This document shows positions 7,013-58,964 of a DNA stretch of 62,754 nt, in pieces; the first letter of the stretch is position 1, and each line of letters opens with the position of its first letter. The position numbers and the translations under genes were made by a program. A model generated the notes under the pieces. That model saw only the letters and a list, made by a program, of their open reading frames with translations, did no database searches and was not told the origin of the DNA. This DNA comes from Candidatus Pacearchaeota archaeon (GTDB lineage Archaea; Nanobdellota; Nanobdellia; Pacearchaeales; GW2011-AR1): positions 1-62,754 of the forward strand of contig JAFCEE010000004.1 in assembly GCA_017609285.1 (NCBI GenBank), written 5' to 3'.

Positions 7013-7839
7013 TTTTTCGGATTTAATTTTTTCCGATAAAGGAAATAACCTAAAACTCCAAATATTAAAATTATTCCCGCAATATAATAATGATTTGTTC
7101 CATTTGAAAATATTTGAATTTGTATTGGAAAATTTAATTCCTTATTTTCTCCAGCAAATTTATAATTAACTTTTATATTTCCTTCATAAATTCCTTTTTT
7201 GTTTCCCTCAAAAACAAATCTCGCAGGTATATTTTCGTCTGATTCTATTTTTCCAAGATATTTTTGTTTAACTCCTTTTAATTCTAACTTTTCTAATTCT
7301 ACTCTAACATCCTTGGCTTTTCCGTTTCCGGCGTTTTCTATATCTATTGTTAGAATAATTTTTTCACCCTCAGAAATAATTTCGGGATTTGTGTAAATCC
7401 TGGAAACTGCCAAATCTGGTTTTTGTGTGTTTATTGTAATTGAAAAATTATCTTCTTTTTCTATATGAAAATTTTTATTTCCGTAAGTAATCTTGGTTTC
7501 AAAAACATGTTCTCCAGGACTTGCGTCGGGAGAAGAATGCATATGGTAAAGAATAAATCTTTGGCTGTTTGCATAACCCATTTTCCCAATATGATTTATT
7601 AAAGGTTCTTTTATTTCTATATCTTCACTATGCCTCAAAATTTCAAAAGTTATATTTTCTGGAATCTTATCCCCACAATTATCTATAACAATTCCAACTG
7701 TAAAATCCTCATCAGCTTCTATTGAACTAGGATTTATAGAGGTTATTTCCGCTGTTACACAATAACCTCTTTGAAGTGCAGAAACAGAGCTTACTAAAAA
7801 TAAAATTACAAATATTAATATCATTCCTCTTTTTATCAT
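7009..7839 (-). CDS. secreted beta-rich protein with C-terminal TM anchor (CARDB / S-layer-domain-like partner of MacB-type ABC systems)
   Basis: Signal peptide, two Ig-like beta-rich segments, C-terminal TM. 4-nt overlap with the permease gene. Confidence 0.5.
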   Translation of the reverse strand: MIKRGMILIFVILFLVSSVSALQRGYCVTAEITSINPSSIEADEDFTVGIVIDNCGDKIPENITFEILRHSEDIEIKEPLINHIGKMGYANSQRFILYHMHSSPDASPGEHVFETKITYGNKNFHIEKEDNFSITINTQKPDLAVSRIYTNPEIISEGEKIILTIDIENAGNGKAKDVRVELEKLELKGVKQKYLGKIESDENIPARFVFEGNKKGIYEGNIKVNYKFAGENKELNFPIQIQIFSNGTNHYYIAGIILIFGVLGYFLYRKKLNPKN

Positions 7840-16155: not shown

Positions 16156-16230
16156 TGGACCTGGAGGGATTTGAACCCTCGACACCCAGATTAAGAGTCT
16201 GGTGCTCTAACCAGGCTGAGCTACAGGTCC
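16156..16230 (-). tRNA. tRNA-Lys (CUU)
   Basis: Hand-folded cloverleaf: GGACCTG/CAGGTCC acceptor, GCTC/GAGC D stem, CCAGA-CTCTTAA-TCTGG anticodon arm, GAGGG-TTCAAAT-CCCTC T arm, discriminator A. Confidence 0.9.
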
Positions 16231-22030: not shown

Positions 22031-22053
22031 AAACCCATCAAGCTTTTTTTGTT
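22031..22053. repeat. Direct repeat, copy 1 (relic of polB 3' end)
   Basis: AAACCCATCAAGCTTTTTTTGTT, identical to 23039-23061. Confidence 0.9.
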
Positions 22054-22127
22054 CTGTGGCTTATTTCAATCTTTAATATTTAAACAACTAACTGAAATTT
22101 TATAAACTAACTTTTTCTTGATTATTT

Positions 22128-23039
22128 ATGATAAAGTATTATAAAACAAAGAATAGGAAGTTAATAAAACTTGAACACAAAGTTGTTAATTCCTGGGTTC
22201 AGGTTATCGACCCTACAGAACAGGAAATCGAATATCTAGTATCTGAGTTTGGAATTGAAAAAGATTATTTGATAGACGGATTAGATATTTATGAAACTCC
22301 CAGAGTAGATGAGGATAATAAAATTATTTACATTTACTTAAGAGTTCCTACAAATAAAGGAGAATCTCCTACTTCAAGCTTTTTGATAATACTGACTCCG
22401 AAATATATTTTTACAATAAGTAAGGAAAATTTAGAAATATTTGAGAAAATAATTGAATCAAAAAGGCCAATAAATACTTCTTTCAAACTTAATTTTGTTA
22501 TGAGATTCTTATCTTTAGTTTCTATATTCTTTAGTGTATATGTTAGAAAGATTATAAAAGAAGTGAAAAGAGATAGAAGCAAGTTAGCGAATTTGAAAGA
22601 GAGGGATATTTTAAGTTTAATTTTAAAAGAAGATATCCTGAATGATTATCTCTCTTCATCCTCCCCCTTGGTTGGAATGCATAAAGACCTTATGAAAATA
22701 AAAACCCTAAAATTCTCAGAGGCTAATAAAGAATTTATTGAAGATTTGGTTATTGATTTAGAACAGACGTATAAAACCTGTAAGTCTGCTTTGAAAAGCA
22801 TCTCTAATATGAGAGATTACTACTCTGTAACCCTATCAAATGATTTGAATAAAATTATTACTATTCTGACTATATTCACTATTTTTTTGACTATCCCTAC
22901 CTTATTCTCTGGGATTTACGGTATGAATATCTCTTTGCCTTTACAGAAACTCAGTTACGCATTTTGGATAATAATGGGGATAATTGTTCTGGTTTGGACA
23001 ATAATGTTAGTTCTTTTAAGAAAGTTAAGAATAATTTAA
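22128..23039 (+). CDS. corA: CorA-family Mg2+/Co2+ transporter
   Basis: C-terminal two TMs with the GIYGMN signature. TATA-like box at 22098-22106. Confidence 0.85.
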   Translation: MIKYYKTKNRKLIKLEHKVVNSWVQVIDPTEQEIEYLVSEFGIEKDYLIDGLDIYETPRVDEDNKIIYIYLRVPTNKGESPTSSFLIILTPKYIFTISKENLEIFEKIIESKRPINTSFKLNFVMRFLSLVSIFFSVYVRKIIKEVKRDRSKLANLKERDILSLILKEDILNDYLSSSSPLVGMHKDLMKIKTLKFSEANKEFIEDLVIDLEQTYKTCKSALKSISNMRDYYSVTLSNDLNKIITILTIFTIFLTIPTLFSGIYGMNISLPLQKLSYAFWIIMGIIVLVWTIMLVLLRKLRII

Positions 23040-25450
23040 AACCCATCAAGCTTTTTTTGTTTCATGCCTTCTAATAATTCTTTTGTATTTATATTAAAGA
23101 CCTCAAAAATATTTTCTATAGCAGGTAAGATTTGATTGTTTAAATAATAATTTATGTCATACGCTCCTTTTTCTTCAGGCAACCTTGCTCGCTCCCTTAC
23201 TAAAGCTTTTTTTTCTTTTGATTCGGCTATATAATAAGAGATAAGCATACCAGCGTCTACTGGCAAACCTAAAGATAACATTTTTTTAGCTATAGTTACA
23301 TGCGGACCTTCTGATAGATACTCAGAAACAGGTTTTTTGAGTTGCGTTCTTATTATAAGCTGTTGCTTGTCAACTTTTCTATTTTTTATTTGCTTTATTA
23401 TTTTCTTTACATATTGCAATGCTGATTTTTCATTACCTTCTCTTAAAATTTTTTCGAGAACTTTATTTTGAATTTCTCTTGACAAAAAGCACCAGTCCCT
23501 TCTTACTGTTTCAAATCCACGAATTTTTATCTTCCCTTTATAATTAATTAAAGCATACTTCTTTTTTGCTCCAAATTCTCCAGTACGTTTAGTTACCCAT
23601 ATCCCTCTTTTATAAAAATCCTCTAATTCGAGTTCCATAATCCCTGGAAGATTCTTGTTTATTTCTTTTAATAAGTTTAAAGTTTCTTGTTTTGTATGTT
23701 TGTTCAGCTCGAATGCTATAGAATCTGTATCACTATATATAACAGAAAAATTTTTTTTGTTTATTATATTAATTGTTTTTTTAATAAATTTTCTACTGAT
23801 TGCTGTTGCAGCTGCTGAAGCTTCAGGACAATAATAGCGAGCTCCAAAAAATCCCTGGTAGCCGTAAGTTGCATTTGCAAGTAACTTAAAAGCATTGCTT
23901 CTAACTTTTTTTATTGGGTCTGGGTTTTTTTTCAATTCAACTTTATACTTTTTCCTTAACTTTATTATTTCCTCTAGGAGTTTGGGAATAAAACCTTTTT
24001 TCTTTGAAAAATAAATTCTTTTATCTCCCAAATCTACTTCTAAACTGTTTTTTTCTTTTTTTTCTCCTAAAAATGTAGTTTTTGATAAATTAAATGTTAC
24101 AATTATAGAAGGCCAGTAACTTGTGAAATCAAAAATAGCAAGATTTTCGTAGAGAGCAGCTTTTGGTTGTAAGACAAAAGCTCCCTCATATCTTTTCCTA
24201 AATCTTCTTTTCTGTATTTCTTCATGGAGGGGTCTCTTTTCAGCTATTTCATTGAATCTTTCTAAATTATGCAAAAAATAATTTTCAACCAAACTACTCA
24301 TTGAGTATCTTGTTATATTGAATAGAGGTTCTTGTATTATTTGTGTAAGGACTGACATGTCTTGCCATAATTTTTGGAATAGTTTGTAAGTTAGAATAGA
24401 ATCTTGTAAGTTATATTTGAAATAATCTAACCAATCTTTTATTTTTCTCTCTTCTGAATTTAGGTTGTGGTCTATTTCCAGCTTTTTTTCTCCAAGCAAT
24501 TCAAAAGCAACATCATTTAAACTTAAGGTTTCTGATTGTAAATATTGAGAATAGCAAGTTTCGATGAATTTCAAAATATCAATATGCACTAAACCTTTTA
24601 TTCTTGCGTTTAATGGTCTGCCTCGAGAAAATATAATCCTGCTATTATCTTTGCCCAATTTTAAATCAATATGGTTTTTTTCAGCTCTTGCTCTTAGATA
24701 TGGCAAATCAAATCCGTCTGAGAAGTATCCTGTTATTATGTCTGGATTTAATTTTTTAATGTAATTTTCAAAAGCCTCAATCATTTCTGCTTCATCTTTG
24801 AAATATTCTACATATTGAGGAACAGAAGAACATTTTTTCCAGGTAAGGACTTTTTTAACATTTTCAGAGACTAAAGAAATCATTAAAATGTCGCCTCTTC
24901 CAATCTCAAATTCTTCTGTTTCAATATCAAAAGCCAGAACTTTTGGTTTAAAAGTTGGCTGCTTTTTTAATTCTTCTGCTTTCTCTAACTTTAAAACAAA
25001 ATCTACATCAAGAGAGTCAGATAAACCATTTAATTCATCAGAAGCTAGGATAGGGCCAGAAATATCATACCATATCAAGGGTTTCAGCTTTTTATTTATA
25101 ATATACTTTGTAATTAGATTTATGTCTCTCTCACGAGTTTCAGATTTTGGATTAAGTTTTTTTATTTTATGAACTATTTCTGTCATTTTATTATATTCAC
25201 AAAAAACTTTTATGGCTTTAACTGGTTTCTCCAAATAATTTTTATCTATTAATTCAGCTTTTTCCACTTCTTTTATTTTCTGTATTTTTTTTAGAAGTTT
25301 TTCTGTCACATTAAGGACGTAGAAAAAATTAACTGCCCTATCTATAACACAACAACTCTTTTTTTGTGAGGTTTTGCCAAATATCTTCATGTACGTTTTG
25401 CCCTCTATTGTTAAGTAGTCATAATCAAGAGGTATGAATTTTAGATTCAT
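23036..25450 (-). CDS. polB: DNA polymerase B
   Basis: Exo I FDIET, Pol motifs SYWPSII and YSDTDS; no intein-sized insert. Confidence 0.95.
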   Translation of the reverse strand: MNLKFIPLDYDYLTIEGKTYMKIFGKTSQKKSCCVIDRAVNFFYVLNVTEKLLKKIQKIKEVEKAELIDKNYLEKPVKAIKVFCEYNKMTEIVHKIKKLNPKSETRERDINLITKYIINKKLKPLIWYDISGPILASDELNGLSDSLDVDFVLKLEKAEELKKQPTFKPKVLAFDIETEEFEIGRGDILMISLVSENVKKVLTWKKCSSVPQYVEYFKDEAEMIEAFENYIKKLNPDIITGYFSDGFDLPYLRARAEKNHIDLKLGKDNSRIIFSRGRPLNARIKGLVHIDILKFIETCYSQYLQSETLSLNDVAFELLGEKKLEIDHNLNSEERKIKDWLDYFKYNLQDSILTYKLFQKLWQDMSVLTQIIQEPLFNITRYSMSSLVENYFLHNLERFNEIAEKRPLHEEIQKRRFRKRYEGAFVLQPKAALYENLAIFDFTSYWPSIIVTFNLSKTTFLGEKKEKNSLEVDLGDKRIYFSKKKGFIPKLLEEIIKLRKKYKVELKKNPDPIKKVRSNAFKLLANATYGYQGFFGARYYCPEASAAATAISRKFIKKTINIINKKNFSVIYSDTDSIAFELNKHTKQETLNLLKEINKNLPGIMELELEDFYKRGIWVTKRTGEFGAKKKYALINYKGKIKIRGFETVRRDWCFLSREIQNKVLEKILREGNEKSALQYVKKIIKQIKNRKVDKQQLIIRTQLKKPVSEYLSEGPHVTIAKKMLSLGLPVDAGMLISYYIAESKEKKALVRERARLPEEKGAYDINYYLNNQILPAIENIFEVFNINTKELLEGMKQKKLDGF
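23039..23061. repeat. Direct repeat, copy 2 (encodes last 8 codons of polB, KQKKLDGF)
   Basis: Identical 23-mer to 22031-22053. Confidence 0.9.
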
Positions 25451-42945: not shown

Positions 42946-43072
42946 TGCCCCGACCGAGATTCGAACTCGGGTCACAGCCTTTCTCTGTCCTTTTCATCTC
43001 GAGAGGGCTGTATCCATAGCCTTCCTTTAGCTGATTAAGGCTAAAAGAATTTGGCCACTAGACTATCGGGGC
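42946..43072 (-). tRNA. tRNA-Glu (CUC) with two introns (D-loop about 35 nt; anticodon loop 37/38 about 19 nt)
   Basis: Exons assemble to a 73-nt cloverleaf: GCCCCGA-TA-GTCT-AGTGGCCAA-GGAT-A-CAGCC-CTCTCGA-GGCTG-TGAC-CCGAG-TTCGAAT-CTCGG-TCGGGGC-A. The GGCCAA D-loop and 4-nt variable loop are typical of archaeal tRNA-Glu. Confidence 0.7.
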
Positions 43073-43972
43073 GTTCATTTGTAATTTTTCCAATCTTTTT
43101 AAATGTTTTTGATTATTGAAACCTATCTTTTTGATGTATTTATTAACCTGTTCTTTACCTGAAATGAAGATTTGTTTTTTTCTTATTATTTTTGATGTTT
43201 TGATATTTAATTTATTAAGAGATTTATGTACATCCTCAATTAAATTTGGAATATAACTTGTAAAACATATTCTAAGATTTCTATTTTTTCTTGAAATATG
43301 ATGAACAGAACCATCAGTATCAATTAAACCTCTTAAACATGCCTCTAAAAATGAATTATTCTTTTTTATCCAATCTGGAATATTTTGATTATTTATTTTT
43401 TTATTTCCTGATTTCAATCCCAATTCATTTAACATTTTAATAAGATTTTTTCCATGAATAGTTAAAAATATTTCATTCTTTTTTGGAATTTCTCTTATTT
43501 TTCCAGGCTCTTTAAATATGCTTATAAATAGCTTTGAGATATACTCTGATAAATATTCATAATCTTGAGATAGATTTCCTGCAATTTTAAGAGCATAACA
43601 TCTTGCGTTATCTTTTTTATAAACTTCTAAATGCCCATCACCTAAAATTATTCCGAATAACTCTGCTAATTTTTTATCTTTCTTTATTTTACCAAACTTT
43701 TTGGTATTGCCATTTGATCTTAAACCTCCCTTAGAGCGCCCCCAATTATCATCTAATCTTCTAGTTATGAATTTATCATAATTTTCTTTAGCAATTTTAC
43801 ATAGTTTATTATAAACTTTTTCTGATATAGTTCTCCTCTTTTCATTTCCTAACTCATTTTGTAAATACTTTTTGTTAAGCCCTACCCTTTTGGACAATTC
43901 TAACCAGGTTATCTTATTTCTAGCTTTCTTAATCAATTCTTTTTGCTTACCTTTTGTAAGGACGATTCTCAT
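43058..43972 (-). CDS. LAGLIDADG-type protein with N-terminal HTH
   Basis: LAELFGIILGDGHL and LRGLIDTDGSV motifs. TTTATAAA box at 43994-44001. The last 5 codons and the TAG stop lie inside the tRNA-Glu 5' exon. Confidence 0.75.
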   Translation of the reverse strand: MRIVLTKGKQKELIKKARNKITWLELSKRVGLNKKYLQNELGNEKRRTISEKVYNKLCKIAKENYDKFITRRLDDNWGRSKGGLRSNGNTKKFGKIKKDKKLAELFGIILGDGHLEVYKKDNARCYALKIAGNLSQDYEYLSEYISKLFISIFKEPGKIREIPKKNEIFLTIHGKNLIKMLNELGLKSGNKKINNQNIPDWIKKNNSFLEACLRGLIDTDGSVHHISRKNRNLRICFTSYIPNLIEDVHKSLNKLNIKTSKIIRKKQIFISGKEQVNKYIKKIGFNNQKHLKRLEKLQMNAPIV

Positions 43973-44026
43973 AATTGTTAGAAGTTATCATTATTTATAA
44001 ATCTTCTTGTTCGCTGAACTGCCTTT

Positions 44027-44057
44027 AAGAATTTCTTGGCTACTAGACTATCGGGGC
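44027..44057 (-). pseudogene. duplicated, degenerate 5' fragment of tRNA-Glu
   Basis: 27/28 identity plus a 3-nt indel versus 43045-43072. Conserved G18 is changed (AGTAGCC vs AGTGGCC). No matching 3' half follows. Confidence 0.65.
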
Positions 44058-44060
44058 AGA

Positions 44061-44133
44061 TAGCCCTGCCAGGATTCGAACCTGGGTCTCAGGATCCAGA
44101 GTCCTGCATACTTGACCACTATACTACAGGGCT
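44061..44133 (-). tRNA. tRNA-Gln (CUG)
   Basis: AGCCCTG/CAGGGCT acceptor (A1-U72), CAGGA-CTCTGGA-TCCTG anticodon arm, CCAGG-TTCGAAT-CCTGG T arm. Confidence 0.9.
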
Positions 44134-44764: not shown

Positions 44765-44882
44765 GCCTCAGTAGCTCAGTCGGTTAGAGCGTTACCTTGG
44801 TATGAAAATCACCAGCAGGTTTTCTATCCTGCGACCAAAAACAAAAAGGTAGAGGTCGTGGGTTCAATTCCCACCTGAGGCT
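44765..44882 (+). tRNA. tRNA-Thr (GGU) with 44-nt intron at 37/38
   Basis: GCCTCAG-TA-GCTC-AGTCGGTTA-GAGC-G-TTACC-TTGGTA[intron]A-GGTAG-AGGTC-GTGGG-TTCAATT-CCCAC-CTGAGGC-T. Confidence 0.85.
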
Positions 44883-53321: not shown

Positions 53322-56300
53322 ATGAGTTATAAGAAATATATTAAAAGAGGTAATAAAATTTATGGACCTTATATTTATAAAAGCGAGAGAAGAGGAGAAA
53401 AAGTTGTTACACAATATATGGGTAAAGGAGAAATTGATAAAAAAAGAAGAAACAAACTCAAATTTTTGTTGGTAATTCCTCTTCTTGTAATTGTTGCTTT
53501 AATTTTTTTTAAAACTTTTCTAACTCCTACTGGGAAGATTGTTTTGGAACCTATTCCTATTTATAAAATCAATGAAACAATAATGGGAGATGTAAAAATA
53601 AATCTAAACCGTGGTGAATTAATCCCTGCTGATTCTTTGATATTATTAAAATTAGATGGGCAAGAAAAAGAAATTTCTTTATCTCAAATCACTTCTATGG
53701 AACCTATAGAAGGGGATTTTTATGCTGAGAATACTGGATTGAGTGGACATGGTTTAGGTTATGGTTTTCCTGGTGAAAAGAAAATTTACCCTACAATTTC
53801 TTTTAAGATTTTAGTTTATGAAATATCTGAAGACATAGAAGAAAGCGAGGTTTCCCAAGAATCCAATGAGGAAAACATTACAAAAGCAGTAGAAGAAGAA
53901 ATCACCTCTGAACCAACAGAAGAAACAACACAAGCAGAAGAACCTGCTCTAGAAATAACAGAACAACAAGCAGAAGAAGAAACTATTACTGAACCAACAG
54001 AAGAAACAAAAGCAGTAGAAGAAGAAATCACCTCTGAACCAGTAGAAGAAACAACACAAGCAGAAGAACCTGCTCTAGAAATAACAGAACAACAAGCAGA
54101 AGAAACATCATCATCCGAAGAAACAAAAGCAGTAGAAGAAGAAATCACCTCTGAACCAGTAGAAGAAACAACACAAGCAGAAGAACCTGCTCCTGAATCG
54201 ATAACACAAACGACAGGAGATGTTAAAGGAGAGGCAGGGATAACTGGAGCAGTAGTCGGAGGTTCAAGAGTTATCGATGGCAAGGTTTCTTATGGCGAAG
54301 AATTCGAGTATGTTCTTGGACCGGGAGAAACAGCTGCAATAATTTCAGAAAGTGTAAAAACTGATGATAAAAATTTAACATCAGATGTTCTAGAGTTTGA
54401 GATTAAAAACAACAAAGTAATAATAACAACACAATATTATGAAACAGAACAAGGTTTTGGTCCTGAGTATCTAACTGATGAGGTTGAAAGCTTGACTGCA
54501 GAACTGGAAAAGTTTAATCTAAAAGCTTTGCCAGGAATTTTAGAGATTTCGATTTTGTATAAGAATACGACAATAACAGAGTTATCAAAAAAAATCAGGG
54601 TTTCAAAACAAGAAATCCCTTTTGAAATAGAGAACATAACTATTAACATAACAGTTACTCCTAACGCAACCTCGATAAAACAAATAAAAACAATTCCAGA
54701 TATAACAATGTTGAAGAATTCTAGATATATATTAAATCTTTCTCATTACTTTTATTCTAATTTTAGTATAACTTATACAGCAATACAGCCAGAAAATATG
54801 AGTATAATTGTGGAAGGCAATAAAGCTGAAATAATTCCTCAAACTAATTTTACTGGAACTCGGGCAAGCAAAATAATAGCTCAAGTAGGAGATTTAATAA
54901 TAGAAAGCAATCTTTTCAATATTATTGTTTCTGAAAGAGATATAAGTTTAAGAACAAGTAAATTGATAAGATTAGGAAAACCAGTTAAGTGGAAAAAGAA
55001 CATTAGGTTGGAGACCCCAACTAATTTTACTATTCAAATCCCAGAAAAATCCAAAAATATAACCATTAGGAAGATTGAGAATGGCAAACAAAAAAAGACA
55101 GAAATTAAAAACTTTAAGGTTAGGGCAGGGACTCTGACAGGGTATCTAACTCTTGAACTGAAACTTGAGAGAAAGCCATCTTTTTTAAAATCTCTAAAAA
55201 ATTTATGGATGGGTCTAAAAAAACTGACTGGTTTGGCAATTGAGAATGAGACAGAAAATACGTTTGTTATAGAAGAAAAATTAACAGAAAATGTTATAGA
55301 AATAGTTATTGAAGATAATGCTACAGAATATGAAATTGAGTATGAAACATCAGCTCCTGAGGCAAGAGAGATAAGAATAGGGAAAGGAAAGAAACAAATT
55401 ACTATTGAGGCTGAACTGCCCTATACTGATATACTTGCATATACTTTTATAGAGGAAAGCAAAGAAGAAGAAATTATTGTAGAGGGAGCAGAATATTATG
55501 AGTTAGTAGATAACAATAATGATGGTCTTGTTGACGAGGTTGACTGGATTGCGAATGTAGGAGATGAGATTTTAATTAGTATAAACAAGACGGATAATCA
55601 AACAAAAAAGGTATTTAATAGAACTAAAAACGCTGATATTTATTATCTTGGGGATAACACTTACAAAGCAGTTATTAGTTTAAAGCAGAAAAATGTTAAA
55701 GTAAACAATACTTATGTTCCTTTAACTGATGTTTTAGAAATGTATTCTAATTATAAGGGCAATATTTATATTAATTTTAACAATACTGAAATTAAATTAA
55801 CACCCTATTACTATTCTGGTTCAGAAAAATTTTATTTAAGTAATATTTCAGATTATGATGTTTTGTATCATTCTCATGTTTATGATAATAAAGGGGGTTA
55901 TAAATATGCTTTTGGGATTTTTAATTTTTCAAAACTTAATACTAATAAAATTGGTTTTGAAATAAATAGTAATAAAAATATTGTTATAGAAAATAATAAA
56001 ATTATTACTGAAAATATTTTAGTTGATTTTTCTGATGTTGCTGAAAGCAATTATTCTTTGAATATGAGTTCAGAATATGTTGAGATTACTGGGGAATTTG
56101 GCGAGAATCTTTATTTAGACCCAAGTGTCACAACACCAGACCCTACTTGGGACAGAACTTGCTATTGGGATGATAGTGCAGGAAATTATAAATTTGATGA
56201 TGCAGCTTCTACAACTTTACCTTGGGGTTATCATAGTACTCTTGGTGACATAAGAAGAGGTGCAATAGACCTTGATATTTCAGCTATTCCAGATGATGTT

Positions 56301-58964
56301 GAGTCAATAGATGATGTTCATTTAAAGATTTATGTTGATAGTGTTCCCGGAGCAGCATTTAGAGATACTTCACTTTACATAACAGAAATGACAGATAAAG
56401 GTGCTAATTATGCAACTGCCCAAGCTTTATTTCAAGCAGTAGATGACAATACTAAATATTTTACTTGGGGAAAGGCAAACTGGGCAACTGGATGGCAGGA
56501 TTTTGATTTAGGAACAAGTGCTGATACTGATTTACAAAACAGACTTGCTAATGATTGGTTTTCTATTGGTTTCTATACTTCAGAAGACGGAAATGCTGGA
56601 ATGTTTAGTTCTTTCCGTTCAGTAGATTATGCAGGGACTACTTCAGACCCATATTTAGAAGTTACTTATACCTTAGCTTCAAATGTTTTAGGATTAAATG
56701 TATCTCTTAATCCTCAATCAGTTTCTTGTAATGAAAATGTTAATATTAGTGGAACATTTACTTTAAATTCTGTTGGAGTCGGAGGTGTTCCAATTGATAT
56801 TTTTATGGATGGGGTTAGATTAAATTATAAAAGGAACTTTACATCTGGAAAAACTTTTTGGGATAATGGTTCTTATTCAAATACAATTAGAACAGATAAT
56901 TATATTCTATTAGATTTAGATTCTAATTATGATATTGTAACAAATGGAAATATGGAGGGAAATTATGTAGGAGGAGTTGCTCCAAATTGGGCTGAAGCTG
57001 CTTATGGAACAAATACTTATAGTTTAGACGAAGAAACTTCAAATCCTTTGCAAGGGAGTTCATCACAAAAAGTTACTATAACTGCCTGGACTGATGGGCA
57101 AGTTGGAATTAAACAAACTCAATCTGTAACTTCTGGAACAAAATATATCTATAAATTAAGAGGAACTTCAACTAATCCTTCAGCAAGTTATTTTATAGCA
57201 TTTCAACAAGATGGAAGCCCATATACTACTTATCTTAATTTTGGAGATTCTTTTAAACCAACTACCACAAATGATTATTATACAGGAGAAAAAACATCTT
57301 CTGGAACAGATGCTGCTTGTAACTTATTAATTAGGGTCAGTAAAGTTGGAACTTATGTTTGGGATGAATTTATAATTTCAACTGCTTATCTTAGTTCTGG
57401 AACTTATACTTCTCCTCCTATTGATTTAGGAACAGGTAATGGAAGCTTGATGATTAAATGGGGAGAATCTTTGCCAGAGAATACAGATATAAAAATACAA
57501 ACACAAACTTCTCCAGATGGCTCATCTTGGGGTGATTGGAGTTCAAATTATACTAATAGTTCAGGAGAGGTTGTAGAAAATCCTCAAAGATATATTAAAT
57601 ATAAAGCTATTTTGGAAACTTCAGACACTACAGAAACTCCTAAATTATATAATGTTACTTTTTATAGTGTTTTAACAGATTCAGCAGGGAATTATAATTT
57701 TAATATAACTGCTCCGTGTGTAGCAGGAACATATAATATTACAGTAAATGCAACTTATGAAGGCTCTTCTGTTACGAATAGTAGTATTTTGAGTGTAAGT
57801 GGAGTGGGAGATACAACTTCGCCAAAAATTAATTTTACAGATCCTACCCCTAAAAATGGAACCACAATTTCAGATACAAGTTTTGAAGTAAATGTTACTA
57901 TAAACGAAACCAATTTAAGAGATGTTATATTTAATTGGGATAATACAAATTATACAATTTATAATAATAGTTTATTTGTAATGTATAATTTTGACAATGT
58001 TTCTGCTTTAGGTGAAAATGATACCTATGTTATTGATTTAAGTCCTGATAGCGAGAATAATAATGCAGTCATAAGTTCTTCTACCTTTGTGGCAGGGAAA
58101 TATGGAAAGGCAATTGAATTAGATGGTTCTAGTTCTACAATAACTCCTTTAAGTTCTGATCCTGGAAATTTCCATGACTCTTTTTCTAAATTGTTTTTTG
58201 AATCTTGGTTTAAAGCAGATGATACTTCAAGCATTAATGGAAGAACTATTTTAGATATTGGAGGAGAATCAAATGGATTTTGCGTAAGGATAAAAGCAAA
58301 TAAACTTATTGTTTGTATCCAAGATGATGATTCTACAGAAAGTATTTCTTACCCATTTACAGATACTTCTAATTGGCATCATATAACTGCAGGTTTTAAT
58401 GACAGTACTCTTTCTTTATATCTTGATGGAGAACTTAAAAATTCCACTAATACCTCCTTTTCTTCTATTTCAGAACATATAAGCGAACCAGGAATAGGTT
58501 ATACTCAGGATTCAGATGCATGTGACTGGTCTTCTTCTGGAAATTATTTTGATGGAAAAATTGATGATCTGAAAATATGGAAAGGAGTAACTTTTAATGC
58601 AGAGGAGATAAAACAACATTATTATTCAAATTTGTATAAAACTTCTGCTTCAGATTGGAATTTATATGTAAATCAAATTAACTATACTAGTGGGAGTTAT
58701 AATTATTATGCTGCTGTTTATGATTCAAGTGATAATTTTAATATGACTGAGGTTAGAAATATTATTATAGATAAAACCTCTAGAATAGGTTTAGGTTTAA
58801 TTTATCCTACTAGGAACATTAATGTAACCCAAAATCAATTTTTTAATGTTACTGTAAATGTTTCTTGTTTTCAGGAAAACTGTGGGGAAGTCAATGTAAG
58901 CTTGGATCCTGTACATACTGGATTTGTGGACCCTAATGGAGATGAGCGATTATGTTTATACTGA
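53322..58964 (+). CDS. giant surface protein (N-terminal TM anchor, acidic repeats, CBM-like and LamG/ConA-like domains)
   Basis: 1880-aa ORF; TM near residues 48-66; LamG-like region about 58030-58600 (...GKAIELDG...FDGKIDDLKIW); very many N-x-S/T sequons. Confidence 0.8.
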   Translation: MSYKKYIKRGNKIYGPYIYKSERRGEKVVTQYMGKGEIDKKRRNKLKFLLVIPLLVIVALIFFKTFLTPTGKIVLEPIPIYKINETIMGDVKINLNRGELIPADSLILLKLDGQEKEISLSQITSMEPIEGDFYAENTGLSGHGLGYGFPGEKKIYPTISFKILVYEISEDIEESEVSQESNEENITKAVEEEITSEPTEETTQAEEPALEITEQQAEEETITEPTEETKAVEEEITSEPVEETTQAEEPALEITEQQAEETSSSEETKAVEEEITSEPVEETTQAEEPAPESITQTTGDVKGEAGITGAVVGGSRVIDGKVSYGEEFEYVLGPGETAAIISESVKTDDKNLTSDVLEFEIKNNKVIITTQYYETEQGFGPEYLTDEVESLTAELEKFNLKALPGILEISILYKNTTITELSKKIRVSKQEIPFEIENITINITVTPNATSIKQIKTIPDITMLKNSRYILNLSHYFYSNFSITYTAIQPENMSIIVEGNKAEIIPQTNFTGTRASKIIAQVGDLIIESNLFNIIVSERDISLRTSKLIRLGKPVKWKKNIRLETPTNFTIQIPEKSKNITIRKIENGKQKKTEIKNFKVRAGTLTGYLTLELKLERKPSFLKSLKNLWMGLKKLTGLAIENETENTFVIEEKLTENVIEIVIEDNATEYEIEYETSAPEAREIRIGKGKKQITIEAELPYTDILAYTFIEESKEEEIIVEGAEYYELVDNNNDGLVDEVDWIANVGDEILISINKTDNQTKKVFNRTKNADIYYLGDNTYKAVISLKQKNVKVNNTYVPLTDVLEMYSNYKGNIYINFNNTEIKLTPYYYSGSEKFYLSNISDYDVLYHSHVYDNKGGYKYAFGIFNFSKLNTNKIGFEINSNKNIVIENNKIITENILVDFSDVAESNYSLNMSSEYVEITGEFGENLYLDPSVTTPDPTWDRTCYWDDSAGNYKFDDAASTTLPWGYHSTLGDIRRGAIDLDISAIPDDVESIDDVHLKIYVDSVPGAAFRDTSLYITEMTDKGANYATAQALFQAVDDNTKYFTWGKANWATGWQDFDLGTSADTDLQNRLANDWFSIGFYTSEDGNAGMFSSFRSVDYAGTTSDPYLEVTYTLASNVLGLNVSLNPQSVSCNENVNISGTFTLNSVGVGGVPIDIFMDGVRLNYKRNFTSGKTFWDNGSYSNTIRTDNYILLDLDSNYDIVTNGNMEGNYVGGVAPNWAEAAYGTNTYSLDEETSNPLQGSSSQKVTITAWTDGQVGIKQTQSVTSGTKYIYKLRGTSTNPSASYFIAFQQDGSPYTTYLNFGDSFKPTTTNDYYTGEKTSSGTDAACNLLIRVSKVGTYVWDEFIISTAYLSSGTYTSPPIDLGTGNGSLMIKWGESLPENTDIKIQTQTSPDGSSWGDWSSNYTNSSGEVVENPQRYIKYKAILETSDTTETPKLYNVTFYSVLTDSAGNYNFNITAPCVAGTYNITVNATYEGSSVTNSSILSVSGVGDTTSPKINFTDPTPKNGTTISDTSFEVNVTINETNLRDVIFNWDNTNYTIYNNSLFVMYNFDNVSALGENDTYVIDLSPDSENNNAVISSSTFVAGKYGKAIELDGSSSTITPLSSDPGNFHDSFSKLFFESWFKADDTSSINGRTILDIGGESNGFCVRIKANKLIVCIQDDDSTESISYPFTDTSNWHHITAGFNDSTLSLYLDGELKNSTNTSFSSISEHISEPGIGYTQDSDACDWSSSGNYFDGKIDDLKIWKGVTFNAEEIKQHYYSNLYKTSASDWNLYVNQINYTSGSYNYYAAVYDSSDNFNMTEVRNIIIDKTSRIGLGLIYPTRNINVTQNQFFNVTVNVSCFQENCGEVNVSLDPVHTGFVDPNGDERLCLY
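53881..54205 (+). repeat. in-frame tandem acidic repeats (126 + 117 + partial unit)
   Basis: Unit KAVEEEITSEP(T/V)EETTQAEEPALEITEQQAEE..., starting at 53881, 54007 and 54124. Confidence 0.85.

What the first reader, a model, noticed from the sequence alone, without database searches (positions are those of the whole stretch)
42946..44133. LAGLIDADG gene wedged between a degenerate and an intact copy of the tRNA-Glu 5' region; ORF terminates inside the tRNA
On the minus strand, tRNA-Gln (44133-44061) is followed after 3 nt by GCCCCGATAGTCTAGTAGCCAAGAAATTCTT (44057-44027). This is a copy of the first 28 nt of the tRNA-Glu gene: 27/28 identical plus a 3-nt indel. It extends 6 nt into the D-loop intron, and the conserved G18 is mutated.

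Next come a TTTATAAA box (44001-43994), a 304-aa LAGLIDADG+HTH ORF, and then the intact tRNA-Glu (43072-42946). The ORF's last codons (N-A-P-I-V) and its TAG stop are read from the tRNA 5' exon.

The ancestral arrangement was evidently tRNA-Gln followed directly by tRNA-Glu. A promoter+ORF cassette of about 985 bp was then inserted with duplication of the tRNA 5' end. Classical homing does not duplicate its target.

The parallel with corA and with the stem-enclosed cassettes suggests a common, unidentified single-gene insertion mechanism in this genome.
Basis: seen in the sequence. Interest (0 to 1): 0.65.

Follow-up and report, generated by a model that had tools for sequence, protein, structure and literature searches.

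The report
Homing-endonuclease cassette invading tRNA genes
The odd gene wedged next to tRNA-Glu is one copy of a widespread, apparently undescribed family of selfish nuclease cassettes in tiny (DPANN) archaea that sit at the front of tRNA-Glu/Gln genes, rebuild the tRNA they interrupt, and go together with unusual introns in those tRNAs.

Summary
A 22-nt copy (21/22) of the tRNA-Glu 5' end lies 3 nt after tRNA-Gln. It is followed by a TATA box and a 304-aa two-domain LAGLIDADG ORF whose TAG stop is tRNA-Glu positions 13-15.

It is not a one-off. In 67 of 82 related loci from DPANN archaea (383 matches in the genome collection), the homologous ORF runs into the 5' end of a tRNA-Glu or tRNA-Gln gene. 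ORF clades follow the isoacceptor. In 54 of 71 loci a tRNA D-arm-like fragment (TAGTnTAGTGGTCAA) sits directly upstream of the ORF's TATA box, against 4% of control windows.

At the syntenic PheRS locus of the window's nearest relatives, the sites are almost always empty: 0 of 24 tRNA-Glu and 2 of 35 tRNA-Gln genes carry the ORF. In some relatives tRNA-Gln and tRNA-Glu are 1-3 nt apart.

tRNAs next to the ORF have D-loop introns or 1-nt D-loop insertions in 36 of 65 cases, against 5 of 79 without it.

Best reading: a free-standing homing-endonuclease cassette that replaces the tRNA 5' segment with an immune version and supplies a new tRNA promoter inside its last codons. Cleavage and homing are inferred, not shown.

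The parts
44061..44133 (-). tRNA-Gln(CUG), intronless, with no endonuclease gene upstream (empty Gln site). Its A/T box TTTTTAAG ends 24 nt before +1.
   Evidence: ARAGORN; Rfam; upstream sequence
44027..44057 (-). F_new: the displaced native 5' end of tRNA-Glu. Positions 1-22 match at 21/22, with G18 changed to A. It is followed by GAAATTCTT and starts 3 nt after tRNA-Gln.
   Evidence: the native position is inferred from empty-site relatives L018, L106, L124 and L031
44007..44022 (-). F_old: a probable degenerate D-arm-like motif, GCAGTTCAGCGAACAA. It ends 34 nt before the ATG, at the family-typical position directly upstream of BRE/TATA. It may be a half-site, operator or homology arm.
   Evidence: conserved in L082 (GTAGTTTAGCGAACAG) and L084; the family motif is at -45..-28 in 54/71 loci against 16/414 control windows
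43994..44001 (-). TATA box of the endonuclease gene. It ends 22 nt before the ATG, which implies a leaderless or near-leaderless mRNA.
   Evidence: the same placement occurs across the family
43058..43972 (-). 304-aa protein with an N-terminal helix-turn-helix-like domain and a two-domain LAGLIDADG endonuclease. Both catalytic Asp residues (D112, D220) are invariant in the family. The last 4 codons and the TAG stop lie inside tRNA-Glu.
   Evidence: Pfam; alignment; AlphaFold2 pLDDT 91.9; Foldseek top hits I-Tsp061I, PI-PfuI and I-DmoI; profile against PDB finds I-DmoI
43096..43103 (-). TTTAAAAA inside codons H290-K292 (the KHLKR motif). It ends 24 nt before tRNA-Glu +1 and is the probable promoter of the rebuilt tRNA-Glu.
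   Evidence: The same 8-nt A/T box ends 24 or 23 nt before +1 at the three other tRNA genes of the window. AAACATTTAAAAAGA is conserved in the Glu-CUC clade.
42947..43072 (-). Intact tRNA-Glu(CUC), with the discriminator at 42946. Its 5' 15 nt overlap the ORF.
   Evidence: cloverleaf model; fold z -5.4
43018..43050 (-). D-loop intron of about 33 nt, forming a relaxed helix-bulge-helix (GGCC/GGCU helix, AAA bulge, UUCU/GGAA helix). The boundaries are uncertain by 1-2 nt.
   Evidence: introns at this position were found almost only in endonuclease-adjacent tRNAs
42981..42999 (-). 19-nt intron at the canonical 37/38 position.
   Evidence: sequence

Best explanation
The locus holds a free-standing LAGLIDADG homing-endonuclease cassette of a DPANN-wide family specialised on the 5' part of tRNA-Glu and tRNA-Gln genes.

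Shown by sequence comparison:
- The cassette carries its own TATA box and a leaderless ORF.
- Its last codons contain an A/T box at the standard distance from the tRNA start, and the ORF runs straight into a complete tRNA.
- A tRNA 5'/D-arm fragment sits upstream of the cassette promoter.
- The site is empty in most close relatives.
- tRNAs that carry the cassette very often have a D-loop intron or a 1-nt D-loop insertion, whereas the upstream fragment and cassette-free tRNAs keep the normal D-loop.

Inferred mechanism:
- The enzyme cuts cassette-free tRNA-Glu genes in the D-arm.
- Break repair, or crossover with a cassette copy, installs promoter, ORF, tRNA promoter and a replacement tRNA 5' segment whose altered D-loop is no longer a target.
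- The old 5' segment is pushed upstream and becomes a dead fragment.
- Its D-arm core is kept because it is still a half-site. It may be bound by the protein (autoregulation) and/or serve as the left homology arm for the next homing event.

In this window the displaced native end (44057-44027) is still nearly intact. A probable older fragment that appears to have travelled with the cassette (44022-44007) lies next to the TATA box.
For: Family architecture:
- 353 homologues, with the C-terminus AP[IV]V conserved.
- 383 matches in species-level genomes.
- The ORF abuts a tRNA-Glu or tRNA-Gln in 67/82 loci.
- Neighbour-joining clades follow the four isoacceptors Glu-CUC, Glu-UUC, Gln-CUG and Gln-UUG.

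Nuclease:
- Two LAGLIDADG motifs with invariant catalytic Asp.
- The fold matches the archaeal intron endonucleases I-Tsp061I and I-DmoI.

Upstream fragment:
- The motif is at -45..-28 in 54/71 loci, against 16/414 control windows.
- The tRNA-invariant positions T8, G10, T11, A14 and G15 carry 1.3-2 bits. The acceptor columns carry 0.1-0.5 bit.
- Where the fragment's first base is recognisable, it fits the downstream tRNA type: it starts AGCCC next to tRNA-Gln and GCCCC/GCTCC next to tRNA-Glu (by eye; not counted).

Empty sites:
- In the PheRS-anchored sample of nearest relatives, 0/24 tRNA-Glu and 2/35 tRNA-Gln genes carry the gene.
- No ORF remnants were found in the Gln-Glu gaps.
- Gln-Glu gaps of 1-3 nt occur in L106 and L018.

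Incongruence: the endonuclease is 71% identical between the window and L082, while flanking PheRS-beta is 39% and p162 is 48%. Other same-type pairs at similar host distance are about 50%.

Immunity signature:
- D-loop introns occur in 23/67 adjacent tRNAs against 1/23 non-adjacent tRNAs in the same contigs (p = 0.005). The single exception, L069, is itself adjacent.
- Adding the PheRS-anchored set gives p = 2e-7.
- Any D-loop length change occurs in 36/65 against 5/79 (p = 4e-11).
- Among loci where the upstream fragment keeps the normal-length D-loop, the resident tRNA has +1 nt in 12 and an intron in 8.

tRNA promoter in the ORF tail.

Precedents: PMC3293823, PMC7315562, PMC2790892, PMC6083498.
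Against: - No cleavage, binding, transcript or transfer data exist. Target site, immunity and autoregulation are inferences.
- 29/65 cassette-adjacent tRNAs have a normal D-loop, so D-loop change cannot be the only protection.
- The protein is unusually well conserved for a selfish gene (floor about 45% identity, 38 invariant columns). No pseudogenised copies were seen. Both facts also fit a host function.
- The counts are not phylogenetically independent, and most genomes are metagenome bins.
- Two stacked fragments were seen only in this window, and no simple single homing event explains them.
That sits badly with intron-based immunity.
- The A/T box in the ORF tail is clear for the Glu-CUC clade but not for the Gln clades.
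Confidence: 0.6

Rival explanations
1. Domesticated resident gene. The LAGLIDADG/HTH protein is a vertically inherited host factor, for example a regulator of tRNA-Glu/Gln transcription that binds the D-arm-like operator. It has been lost many times by recombination between the flanking repeats, and there is no homing today.
For: Strong conservation, with a floor of about 45% identity that is often higher than neighbouring genes. Clades are isoacceptor-specific. No pseudogenes were seen. The fragment sits at a classical operator position next to BRE/TATA. WhiA is a precedent for a LAGLIDADG-derived regulator and gives weak hits.
Against: Both catalytic Asp residues and the GDG/DTDG motifs are invariant, unlike known domesticated forms. 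Occupancy among nearest relatives is very low. The window-L082 identity is an outlier. D-loop alterations are specific to carrier tRNAs. The nearly intact displaced 5' end in the window argues for a recent insertion.
Confidence: 0.2
2. Recombinase-type integration. The 985-bp cassette is a non-autonomous integrative element, or the remnant of one, moved by a tyrosine recombinase acting on a tRNA 5' att site. The two tRNA 5' copies are attL and attR, and the LAGLIDADG gene is cargo.
For: Direct repeats of a tRNA end flank an insert next to a reconstituted tRNA, exactly as for pNOB8-type elements. In the Caldiarchaeum tRNA-Thr case an intron near position 24/25 was also gained (PMC3293823). corA in the same window is also flanked by a 32-nt direct repeat.
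Against: There is no recombinase in the cassette, and none was noticed next to the gene in the relatives whose neighbouring genes were listed. Recombinases were not searched for systematically. The only constant gene is the nuclease. In most loci the upstream copy is an old, diverged D-arm fragment, not an att-like identical repeat. No close relatives occur on IMG/VR viral contigs.
Confidence: 0.1
3. Giant intron or alternative 5' exon. The upstream fragment is a functional 5' exon, and everything up to the 3' end of the D-loop intron is a roughly 1-kb ORF-bearing archaeal intron, so the locus encodes a tRNA with two alternative 5' exons.
For: The fragment can pair with the 3' part of the tRNA in the same architecture (cofold -47.2 against -56.0 kcal/mol for the native 5' part). 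ARAGORN itself calls such a 1-kb-intron 'tRNA' in L068. The closest structural relatives of the protein are archaeal intron-encoded enzymes.
Against: A complete tRNA with its own promoter lies downstream. In the fragment G18 is mutated and the splice-site bulge would be 6 nt instead of 3. The fragment is absent in L082. In most family members the acceptor part of the fragment has decayed.
Confidence: 0.05
4. Assembly artefact or chance similarity.
For: The window comes from a metagenome assembly. tRNA 5' ends are similar to one another.
Against: Zero matches are expected by chance. An independent contig has the same structure. The same architecture occurs in dozens of independent assemblies.
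Confidence: 0.02

Closest known systems
Archaeal intron-encoded LAGLIDADG homing endonucleases (I-DmoI, I-Tsp061I, I-PorI of rRNA introns)
   Same: Monomeric two-domain LAGLIDADG fold with both catalytic acidic residues. They are the best structural and sequence matches. They also occur in an archaeal host and target a conserved stable-RNA gene.
   Different: The gene here is not inside a spliced intron. It lies upstream of a complete tRNA, has its own promoter and an extra N-terminal HTH-like domain of about 100 aa, and the target is a tRNA gene. The open-access papers searched did not link LAGLIDADG genes with archaeal tRNA genes or tRNA introns.
Free-standing homing endonucleases with 'collaborative' introns or marker exclusion in phages (F-CphI/psbA intron; MobE/I-TevIII; SegB in the T4 tRNA cluster)
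   Same: The nuclease gene sits beside its target gene rather than inside it. The carrier allele differs from the target at the recognition site, by an intron or by polymorphisms. Spread is expected by break repair with co-conversion (PMC6083498, PMC2790892, PMC2988022, PMC13096335).
   Different: Those are HNH, GIY-YIG or EndoVII-type enzymes in phage genomes with group I introns. Here the enzyme is LAGLIDADG, the genomes are cellular archaeal, the introns are protein-spliced, and a piece of the target is duplicated.
Mobile elements integrated in archaeal tRNA genes (pNOB8/SSV type; Caldiarchaeum tRNA-Thr case)
   Same: A tRNA 5' fragment is left upstream, a reconstituted tRNA lies downstream, the element's gene lies immediately next to the tRNA on the same strand, and a new intron appears near the D-arm (PMC3293823).
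   Different: Those elements move with a tyrosine recombinase and are kilobases long. This cassette is about 1 kb and encodes only a nuclease.
Fungal mitochondrial endonuclease-bearing elements that carry a duplicate of part of the host gene
   Same: The insertion brings a replacement copy of one end of the host gene and leaves or creates a truncated duplicate. The result is 'host gene fragment exchange' (PMC7315562).
   Different: Those involve organellar protein-coding genes and group I introns. No promoter is supplied and the target is not a tRNA.
I-TevI autorepression
   Same: A homing endonuclease binds an operator that resembles its homing site and overlaps its own promoter.
   Different: This is only an analogy for the conserved D-arm fragment next to the TATA box. 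Binding was not tested here.

Membership tests
LAGLIDADG homing endonuclease (protein superfamily) | Two LAGLIDADG helices, each ending in a catalytic acidic residue | tested here: met
   LAELFGIILGDGH (D112) and LRGLIDTDGSV (D220). G111-D112-G113 and D218-T219-D220-G221 are invariant in 31 homologues. Pfam PF14528 at E 9e-11.
LAGLIDADG homing endonuclease (protein superfamily) | Double alpha-beta-beta-alpha-beta-beta-alpha fold | tested here: met
   AlphaFold2 pLDDT 91.9. Foldseek gives probability 1.0 for I-Tsp061I, PI-PfuI, I-DmoI and I-SceI.
LAGLIDADG homing endonuclease (protein superfamily) | Site-specific double-strand cleavage of the allele that lacks the gene | not testable with these tools
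   Needs a cleavage assay on an intronless tRNA-Glu(CUC) gene.
Homing element (mobile) | Presence/absence polymorphism at a fixed site among related genomes | tested here: met
   Among nearest relatives, 0/24 tRNA-Glu and 2/35 tRNA-Gln genes at the syntenic locus carry it. More distant relatives carry it at the same site.
Homing element (mobile) | Gene phylogeny incongruent with the host | tested here: inconclusive
   The window-L082 pair gives 71% for the endonuclease against 39% for PheRS-beta and 48% for p162. Few comparable pairs exist and the family is slowly evolving.
Archaeal intron-encoded endonuclease | ORF located inside a bulge-helix-bulge intron of the target RNA gene | tested here: not met
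   The ORF lies upstream of a complete tRNA. The 33-nt D-loop intron has no ORF. It would only count as intronic if the decayed upstream fragment were taken as the exon.
Collaborative homing (free-standing endonuclease plus ORF-less intron) | The intron interrupts the recognition site of the neighbouring endonuclease | tested here: inconclusive
   There is a strong association of D-loop introns and insertions with carrier tRNAs, but the recognition site is unknown and 29/65 carriers have a normal D-loop.
tRNA-targeting integrative element (SSV/pNOB8 type) | Encodes a tyrosine recombinase (integrase) | tested here: not met
   The 985-bp unit holds a single ORF, and it is LAGLIDADG.
tRNA-targeting integrative element (SSV/pNOB8 type) | Direct repeat of a tRNA end flanking the insert, with the tRNA reconstituted | tested here: met
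   44057-44036 against 43072-43051 at 21/22, with an intact tRNA downstream.
Split or permuted tRNA | No contiguous gene copy; halves joined through complementary leaders | tested here: not met
   A contiguous tRNA-Glu with all arms exists. The fragment has G18 changed to A and is missing in L082.

The most novel reading that the evidence does not exclude
Non-canonical D-loop introns and D-loop insertions in DPANN tRNA-Glu/Gln genes are produced or maintained by an arms race with a dedicated family of tRNA-targeting LAGLIDADG cassettes. The cassette delivers an 'immune' tRNA 5' segment together with a new promoter. That would make a nuclease-encoding selfish element a direct driver of tRNA gene disruption in archaea, through introns and displaced tRNA fragments, and possibly a first step toward split tRNAs. 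The retained D-arm fragment would double as operator and portable homology arm.
Probability: 0.35. Interest if true: 0.85.

Novelty: new variant of a known kind. Interest (0 to 1): 0.72.

Why it matters
Why archaeal tRNA genes carry introns at odd positions, and how they become fragmented, is an old open question. The main idea so far is protection against integrating viruses and plasmids (Randau and Soll, as summarised in PMC4090602).

This locus and its relatives offer a concrete and testable agent. The candidate is a nuclease family tied to four specific tRNA isoacceptors, with the D-loop changes found almost only in the tRNAs that carry it.

It also shows how a selfish gene can invade an essential RNA gene without being an intron, by bringing a replacement gene end and a promoter. 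The family could also be a source of new rare-cutting nucleases with tRNA-gene specificity.

In practice, these loci cause standard tRNA finders to miss tRNA-Glu and tRNA-Gln genes in DPANN genomes.

Tried and rejected
- ARAGORN and Rfam do not find the tRNA-Glu. I replaced them with a strict cloverleaf search of my own.
- A single-protein locus search in genomes found nothing. The alignment-based search worked.
- The p162 alignment was too variable for a locus search. PheRS-beta was used as the anchor instead.
- An exact-pattern search for the tRNA-Gln/tRNA-Glu junction of this lineage in JGI metagenome contigs gave 0 hits, so there is no strain-level empty allele to compare.
- Only one public run holds any of the region. 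It gives one identical 151-nt contig and no informative joints, so there is no RNA evidence.
- IMG/VR viral contigs hold only distant LAGLIDADG genes (25-41% identity), so no viral vector was found.
- No endonuclease remnants were found in the Gln-Glu gaps of empty loci, even at E 10. Apparent truncations turned out to be contig ends or variant N-termini.
- I considered and rejected reading the region after the fragment as a decayed copy of the whole intron plus anticodon arm. The similarity is weak, and L082 and L084 show that it is the family D-arm motif.
- NCBIfam has no family for this protein.
- Literature searches found no description of tRNA-linked LAGLIDADG genes in archaea. Only open-access text was searched.
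Full report
**1. Observation**

The minus strand reads as follows:
- tRNA-Gln(CUG) at 44133-44061;
- the spacer tct;
- GCCCCGATAGTCTAGTAGCCAA-GAA-ATTCTT at 44057-44027;
- TTTATAAA at 44001-43994;
- an ATG at 43972 that opens a 304-aa ORF ending at 43058;
- a tRNA-Glu(CUC) gene at 43072-42947.

The ORF's last codons, GCC CCG ATA GTC TAG, are tRNA positions 1-15. The two 22-mers differ at one base, the G18 position. A search allowing 3 mismatches finds only these two copies in the window, with none expected from shuffles.

ARAGORN and Rfam miss the tRNA-Glu. A strict cloverleaf model finds it, requiring 7/7 acceptor pairs, 5/5 T-stem pairs, a TTCRA loop and 5/5 anticodon-stem pairs. It has a D-loop intron of about 33 nt and a 19-nt intron at 37/38. 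The precursor folds as a cloverleaf with the D-stem extended by the intron hairpin (z = -5.4). An independent 3.9-kb JGI contig has the same structure, with one mismatch elsewhere.

**2. The protein**

- Pfam gives LAGLIDADG_3.
- The two motifs, LAELFGIILGDGH and LRGLIDTDGSV, keep their catalytic Asp residues, and these are invariant in 31 homologues.
- The AlphaFold2 model (pLDDT 91.9) matches the archaeal intron-encoded enzymes I-Tsp061I and I-DmoI and the intein enzyme PI-PfuI. A profile search of PDB sequences also finds I-DmoI.
- Residues 1-75 form an extra helix-turn-helix-like domain, joined to the nuclease by a low-confidence linker.
- NCBIfam has no model for the family.

**3. The arrangement is the rule for a large family**

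- The word-indexed search gave 353 homologues of about 300 aa at 40-71% identity, mostly from Pacearchaeota and Woesearchaeota bins.
- The exhaustive profile search gave 627 clusters (at 50% identity) with E <= 1e-30.
- The C-terminal AP[IV]V, SPVV or AP is conserved. This only makes sense if the ORF ends inside a tRNA in the relatives too.
- Of 383 matching loci in the species-representative genome collection, I examined the best 80. In nearly all, the ORF runs into GCyCC... (tRNA-Glu) or AGCCC... (tRNA-Gln). The strict model places a tRNA-Glu or tRNA-Gln at the ORF end in 67 of 82 loci, most often with +1 lying 12 or 7 nt before the stop.
- tRNA 5' ends carry TAG at positions 8-10 and 13-15, so the 'stop inside the tRNA' is an automatic result of the abutment. 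The abutment itself is the non-trivial feature.
- A neighbour-joining tree splits the proteins into clades that match the isoacceptor: Glu-CUC (which includes the window), Glu-UUC, Gln-CUG and Gln-UUG.
- A 28%-identical relative abuts a tRNA-Thr(GGU).

**4. Upstream fragments are also the rule**

In 54 of 71 loci with a defined start codon, a match to TAGTGGTCAA (up to 3 substitutions) ends 28-45 nt before the start codon, directly followed by BRE/TATA. Control windows give 16/414, and coding sequence gives 7/79.

The four specified columns 5' of the anchor (T8, A9, G10, T11) are also conserved, at 0.7-1.5 bits. The acceptor-stem columns carry only 0.1-0.5 bit.

By eye, the start of the fragment, where it is still recognisable, fits the downstream tRNA: AGCCC for Gln and GCCCC/GCTCC for Glu (not counted). 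At variable tRNA positions the fragment mostly does not match the resident tRNA. In a few loci the two copies are identical over 22-27 nt (L027, L068).

The D-arm core is therefore retained at protein divergences where neutral DNA would be unrecognisable. This implies either selection or repeated renewal.

GCAGTTCAGCGAACAA (44022-44007) ends 34 nt before the ATG. It is conserved in the two closest loci, L082 (GTAGTTTAGCGAACAG) and L084. It is degenerate, matching 9 of 14 consensus positions.

**5. Promoters**

All three other tRNA genes of the window have an 8-nt A/T box ending 24 or 23 nt before the mature 5' end. The same spacing holds for TTTAAAAA (43103-43096), which lies inside ORF codons H290-K292.

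The invariant C-terminal KHLKR motif of the Glu-CUC clade is encoded by AAACATTTAAAAAGA. I infer that the cassette supplies the promoter of the tRNA it has cut off from its former upstream region. This is clear for the Glu-CUC clade and unclear for the Gln clades. The ORF's own TATA box ends 22 nt before the ATG, which implies a leaderless mRNA.

**6. Empty versus filled sites**

The upstream neighbourhood is shared by many loci: PheRS-beta, a 162-aa protein (p162), tRNA-Thr and small membrane proteins.

I sampled this neighbourhood without reference to the endonuclease by fetching the 80 genomes whose PheRS-beta is closest to the window's (57-74% identity). There, 24 tRNA-Glu(CUC) genes and 33 tRNA-Gln genes lack the endonuclease. 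Only two tRNA-Gln genes carry it (L148, L159), and no tRNA-Glu does. The Gln-Glu gaps show no remnants.

Empty arrangements include tRNA-Gln followed by tRNA-Glu after 1 nt (L106), 3 nt (L018), 29 nt (L124) and 40 nt (L031). The window's fresh fragment begins 3 nt after tRNA-Gln, which is where the native tRNA-Glu should start.

More distant genomes (L082, L008, L012, L010) carry a Glu-type gene at the same locus. Others (L017, L018, L022, L023, L025, L031, L038) carry a Gln-type gene upstream of tRNA-Gln and have an empty tRNA-Glu.

The window-L082 pair is 71% identical in the endonuclease but only 39% in PheRS-beta and 48% in p162. Other same-type pairs at similar host distance are about 50%. 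This suggests a more recent common origin of the two endonuclease genes, but the sample is small.

**7. D-loop changes go with the cassette**

| Comparison | Cassette-adjacent tRNAs | Non-adjacent tRNAs | Fisher p |
|---|---|---|---|
| D-region intron, same contigs | 23/67 | 1/23 (the one is L069, itself adjacent on inspection) | 0.005 |
| D-region intron, adding the PheRS-anchored set | 23/67 | 2/81, one of them L069 | 2e-7 |
| D-loop one or more nt longer, intronless tRNAs only | 14/43 | 5/79 | 4e-4 |
| Any D-loop length change | 36/65 | 5/79 | 4e-11 |

The upstream fragment has the normal D-loop, like the cassette-free tRNAs, in loci where the resident tRNA has +1 nt (12 loci) or an intron (8 loci). 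In L068, L071 and L027 the fragment continues into the 3' strand of the D-stem as in a spliced, intronless tRNA, whereas the resident gene has the intron.

There are three caveats. The counts are not phylogenetically independent, although altered states occur in several clades. Most genomes are metagenome bins. And 29/65 carriers have a normal D-loop.

**8. Mechanism**

Shown: the architecture, its distribution, the empty sites, and the D-loop association.

Inferred:
- The enzyme recognises the D-arm region of normal tRNA-Glu or tRNA-Gln genes.
- Break repair from a carrier copy, or crossover with an excised cassette, installs promoter, ORF, tRNA promoter and a replacement 5' segment whose D-loop is altered and therefore protected.
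- The former 5' segment is displaced upstream.
- Its D-arm core persists as a half-site that can no longer be cut. It may bind the protein at its own promoter and may provide tRNA-derived homology on the left side, so the cassette can enter the same tRNA gene in any genomic context.
- Recombination between the fragment and the tRNA 5' end would delete the cassette cleanly. This would explain the lack of pseudogenes.

The window's two stacked fragments imply either an irregular left junction or two rounds of insertion. I cannot tell which.

The sequence GAAATTCTTAAAG after the fresh fragment can be read in two ways. The alternative is the family-typical CAA-GAAA-A/T-box module. The second reading fits the immunity idea better.

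**9. Rivals**

- A domesticated regulator fits the strong conservation and the operator-like position. It fits poorly with the invariant catalytic residues, the low occupancy and the fresh displaced end.
- Recombinase-mediated integration has the closest published look-alike: the Caldiarchaeum tRNA-Thr case, with a 5' fragment 1.8 kb upstream, a recombinase gene next to the tRNA, and intron gain at 24/25 (PMC3293823). But no recombinase is present in this cassette.
- Use of the fragment as an alternative 5' exon is thermodynamically possible but unlikely.
- Artefact and chance are excluded.

**10. Known or new**

Each ingredient has precedents:
- LAGLIDADG enzymes in archaeal rRNA introns;
- free-standing endonucleases with co-operating introns in phages (PMC6083498, PMC2790892);
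- endonuclease-bearing elements that carry a piece of the host gene (PMC7315562);
- tRNA fragments left by integrating elements (PMC3293823).

The full-text searches found no paper that ties LAGLIDADG genes to archaeal tRNA genes or tRNA introns. A 2014 review of tRNA introns never uses the word 'homing'.

I therefore rate the system a new variant of a known kind, found here as a whole family rather than a single oddity.

Noticed in passing
window 22031-22062 and 23039-23070 (corA 22128-23039, +): A CorA gene (Pfam E 9e-41) with its own A/T box is flanked by a 32-nt direct repeat at 88% identity. The right copy is the 3' end of the family-B DNA polymerase gene on the opposite strand (23036-25450). 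This is the same 'single gene between a decayed and an intact copy of a neighbour's end' pattern, but without a nuclease.
   Followed up: partly
window 16156-16230, 44061-44133, 44765-44882, 42947-43072: All four tRNA genes have an 8-nt A/T box ending 23-24 nt before the mature 5' end. Transcription therefore probably starts at or next to +1, giving leaderless tRNA transcripts. From memory, this is what was reported for Nanoarchaeum equitans, which lacks RNase P.
   Followed up: partly
L118 6579-7580 with tRNA-Thr(GGU) 7566-7638: A distant relative (28% identity) with the same domain layout ends inside a tRNA-Thr gene. The wider family therefore targets further tRNAs.
   Followed up: partly
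relatives' tRNA-Glu(CUC) genes (L087-L166, L002-L081): Almost all tRNA-Glu(CUC) genes of these archaea carry very large introns at the canonical 37/38 position (45-220 nt), whether or not the endonuclease is present. tRNA-Gln genes are mostly intronless.
   Followed up: no
protein family: Many family members are only about 200-220 aa and lack the N-terminal HTH-like domain. Others are about 330-340 aa with a different N-terminus. L079 has a short alternative N-terminus.
   Followed up: no
window 53880-54248: Three tandem 126-nt repeats (72-88% identity) lie inside the 1880-aa ORF (53322-58964). This is probably a repeat-domain surface protein.
   Followed up: no
L068 611-1678: ARAGORN calls a single 'tRNA' running from the upstream fragment to the 3' end of the real tRNA, with the whole endonuclease gene as a 1-kb intron. 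Such loci can therefore produce wrong tRNA annotations.
   Followed up: partly
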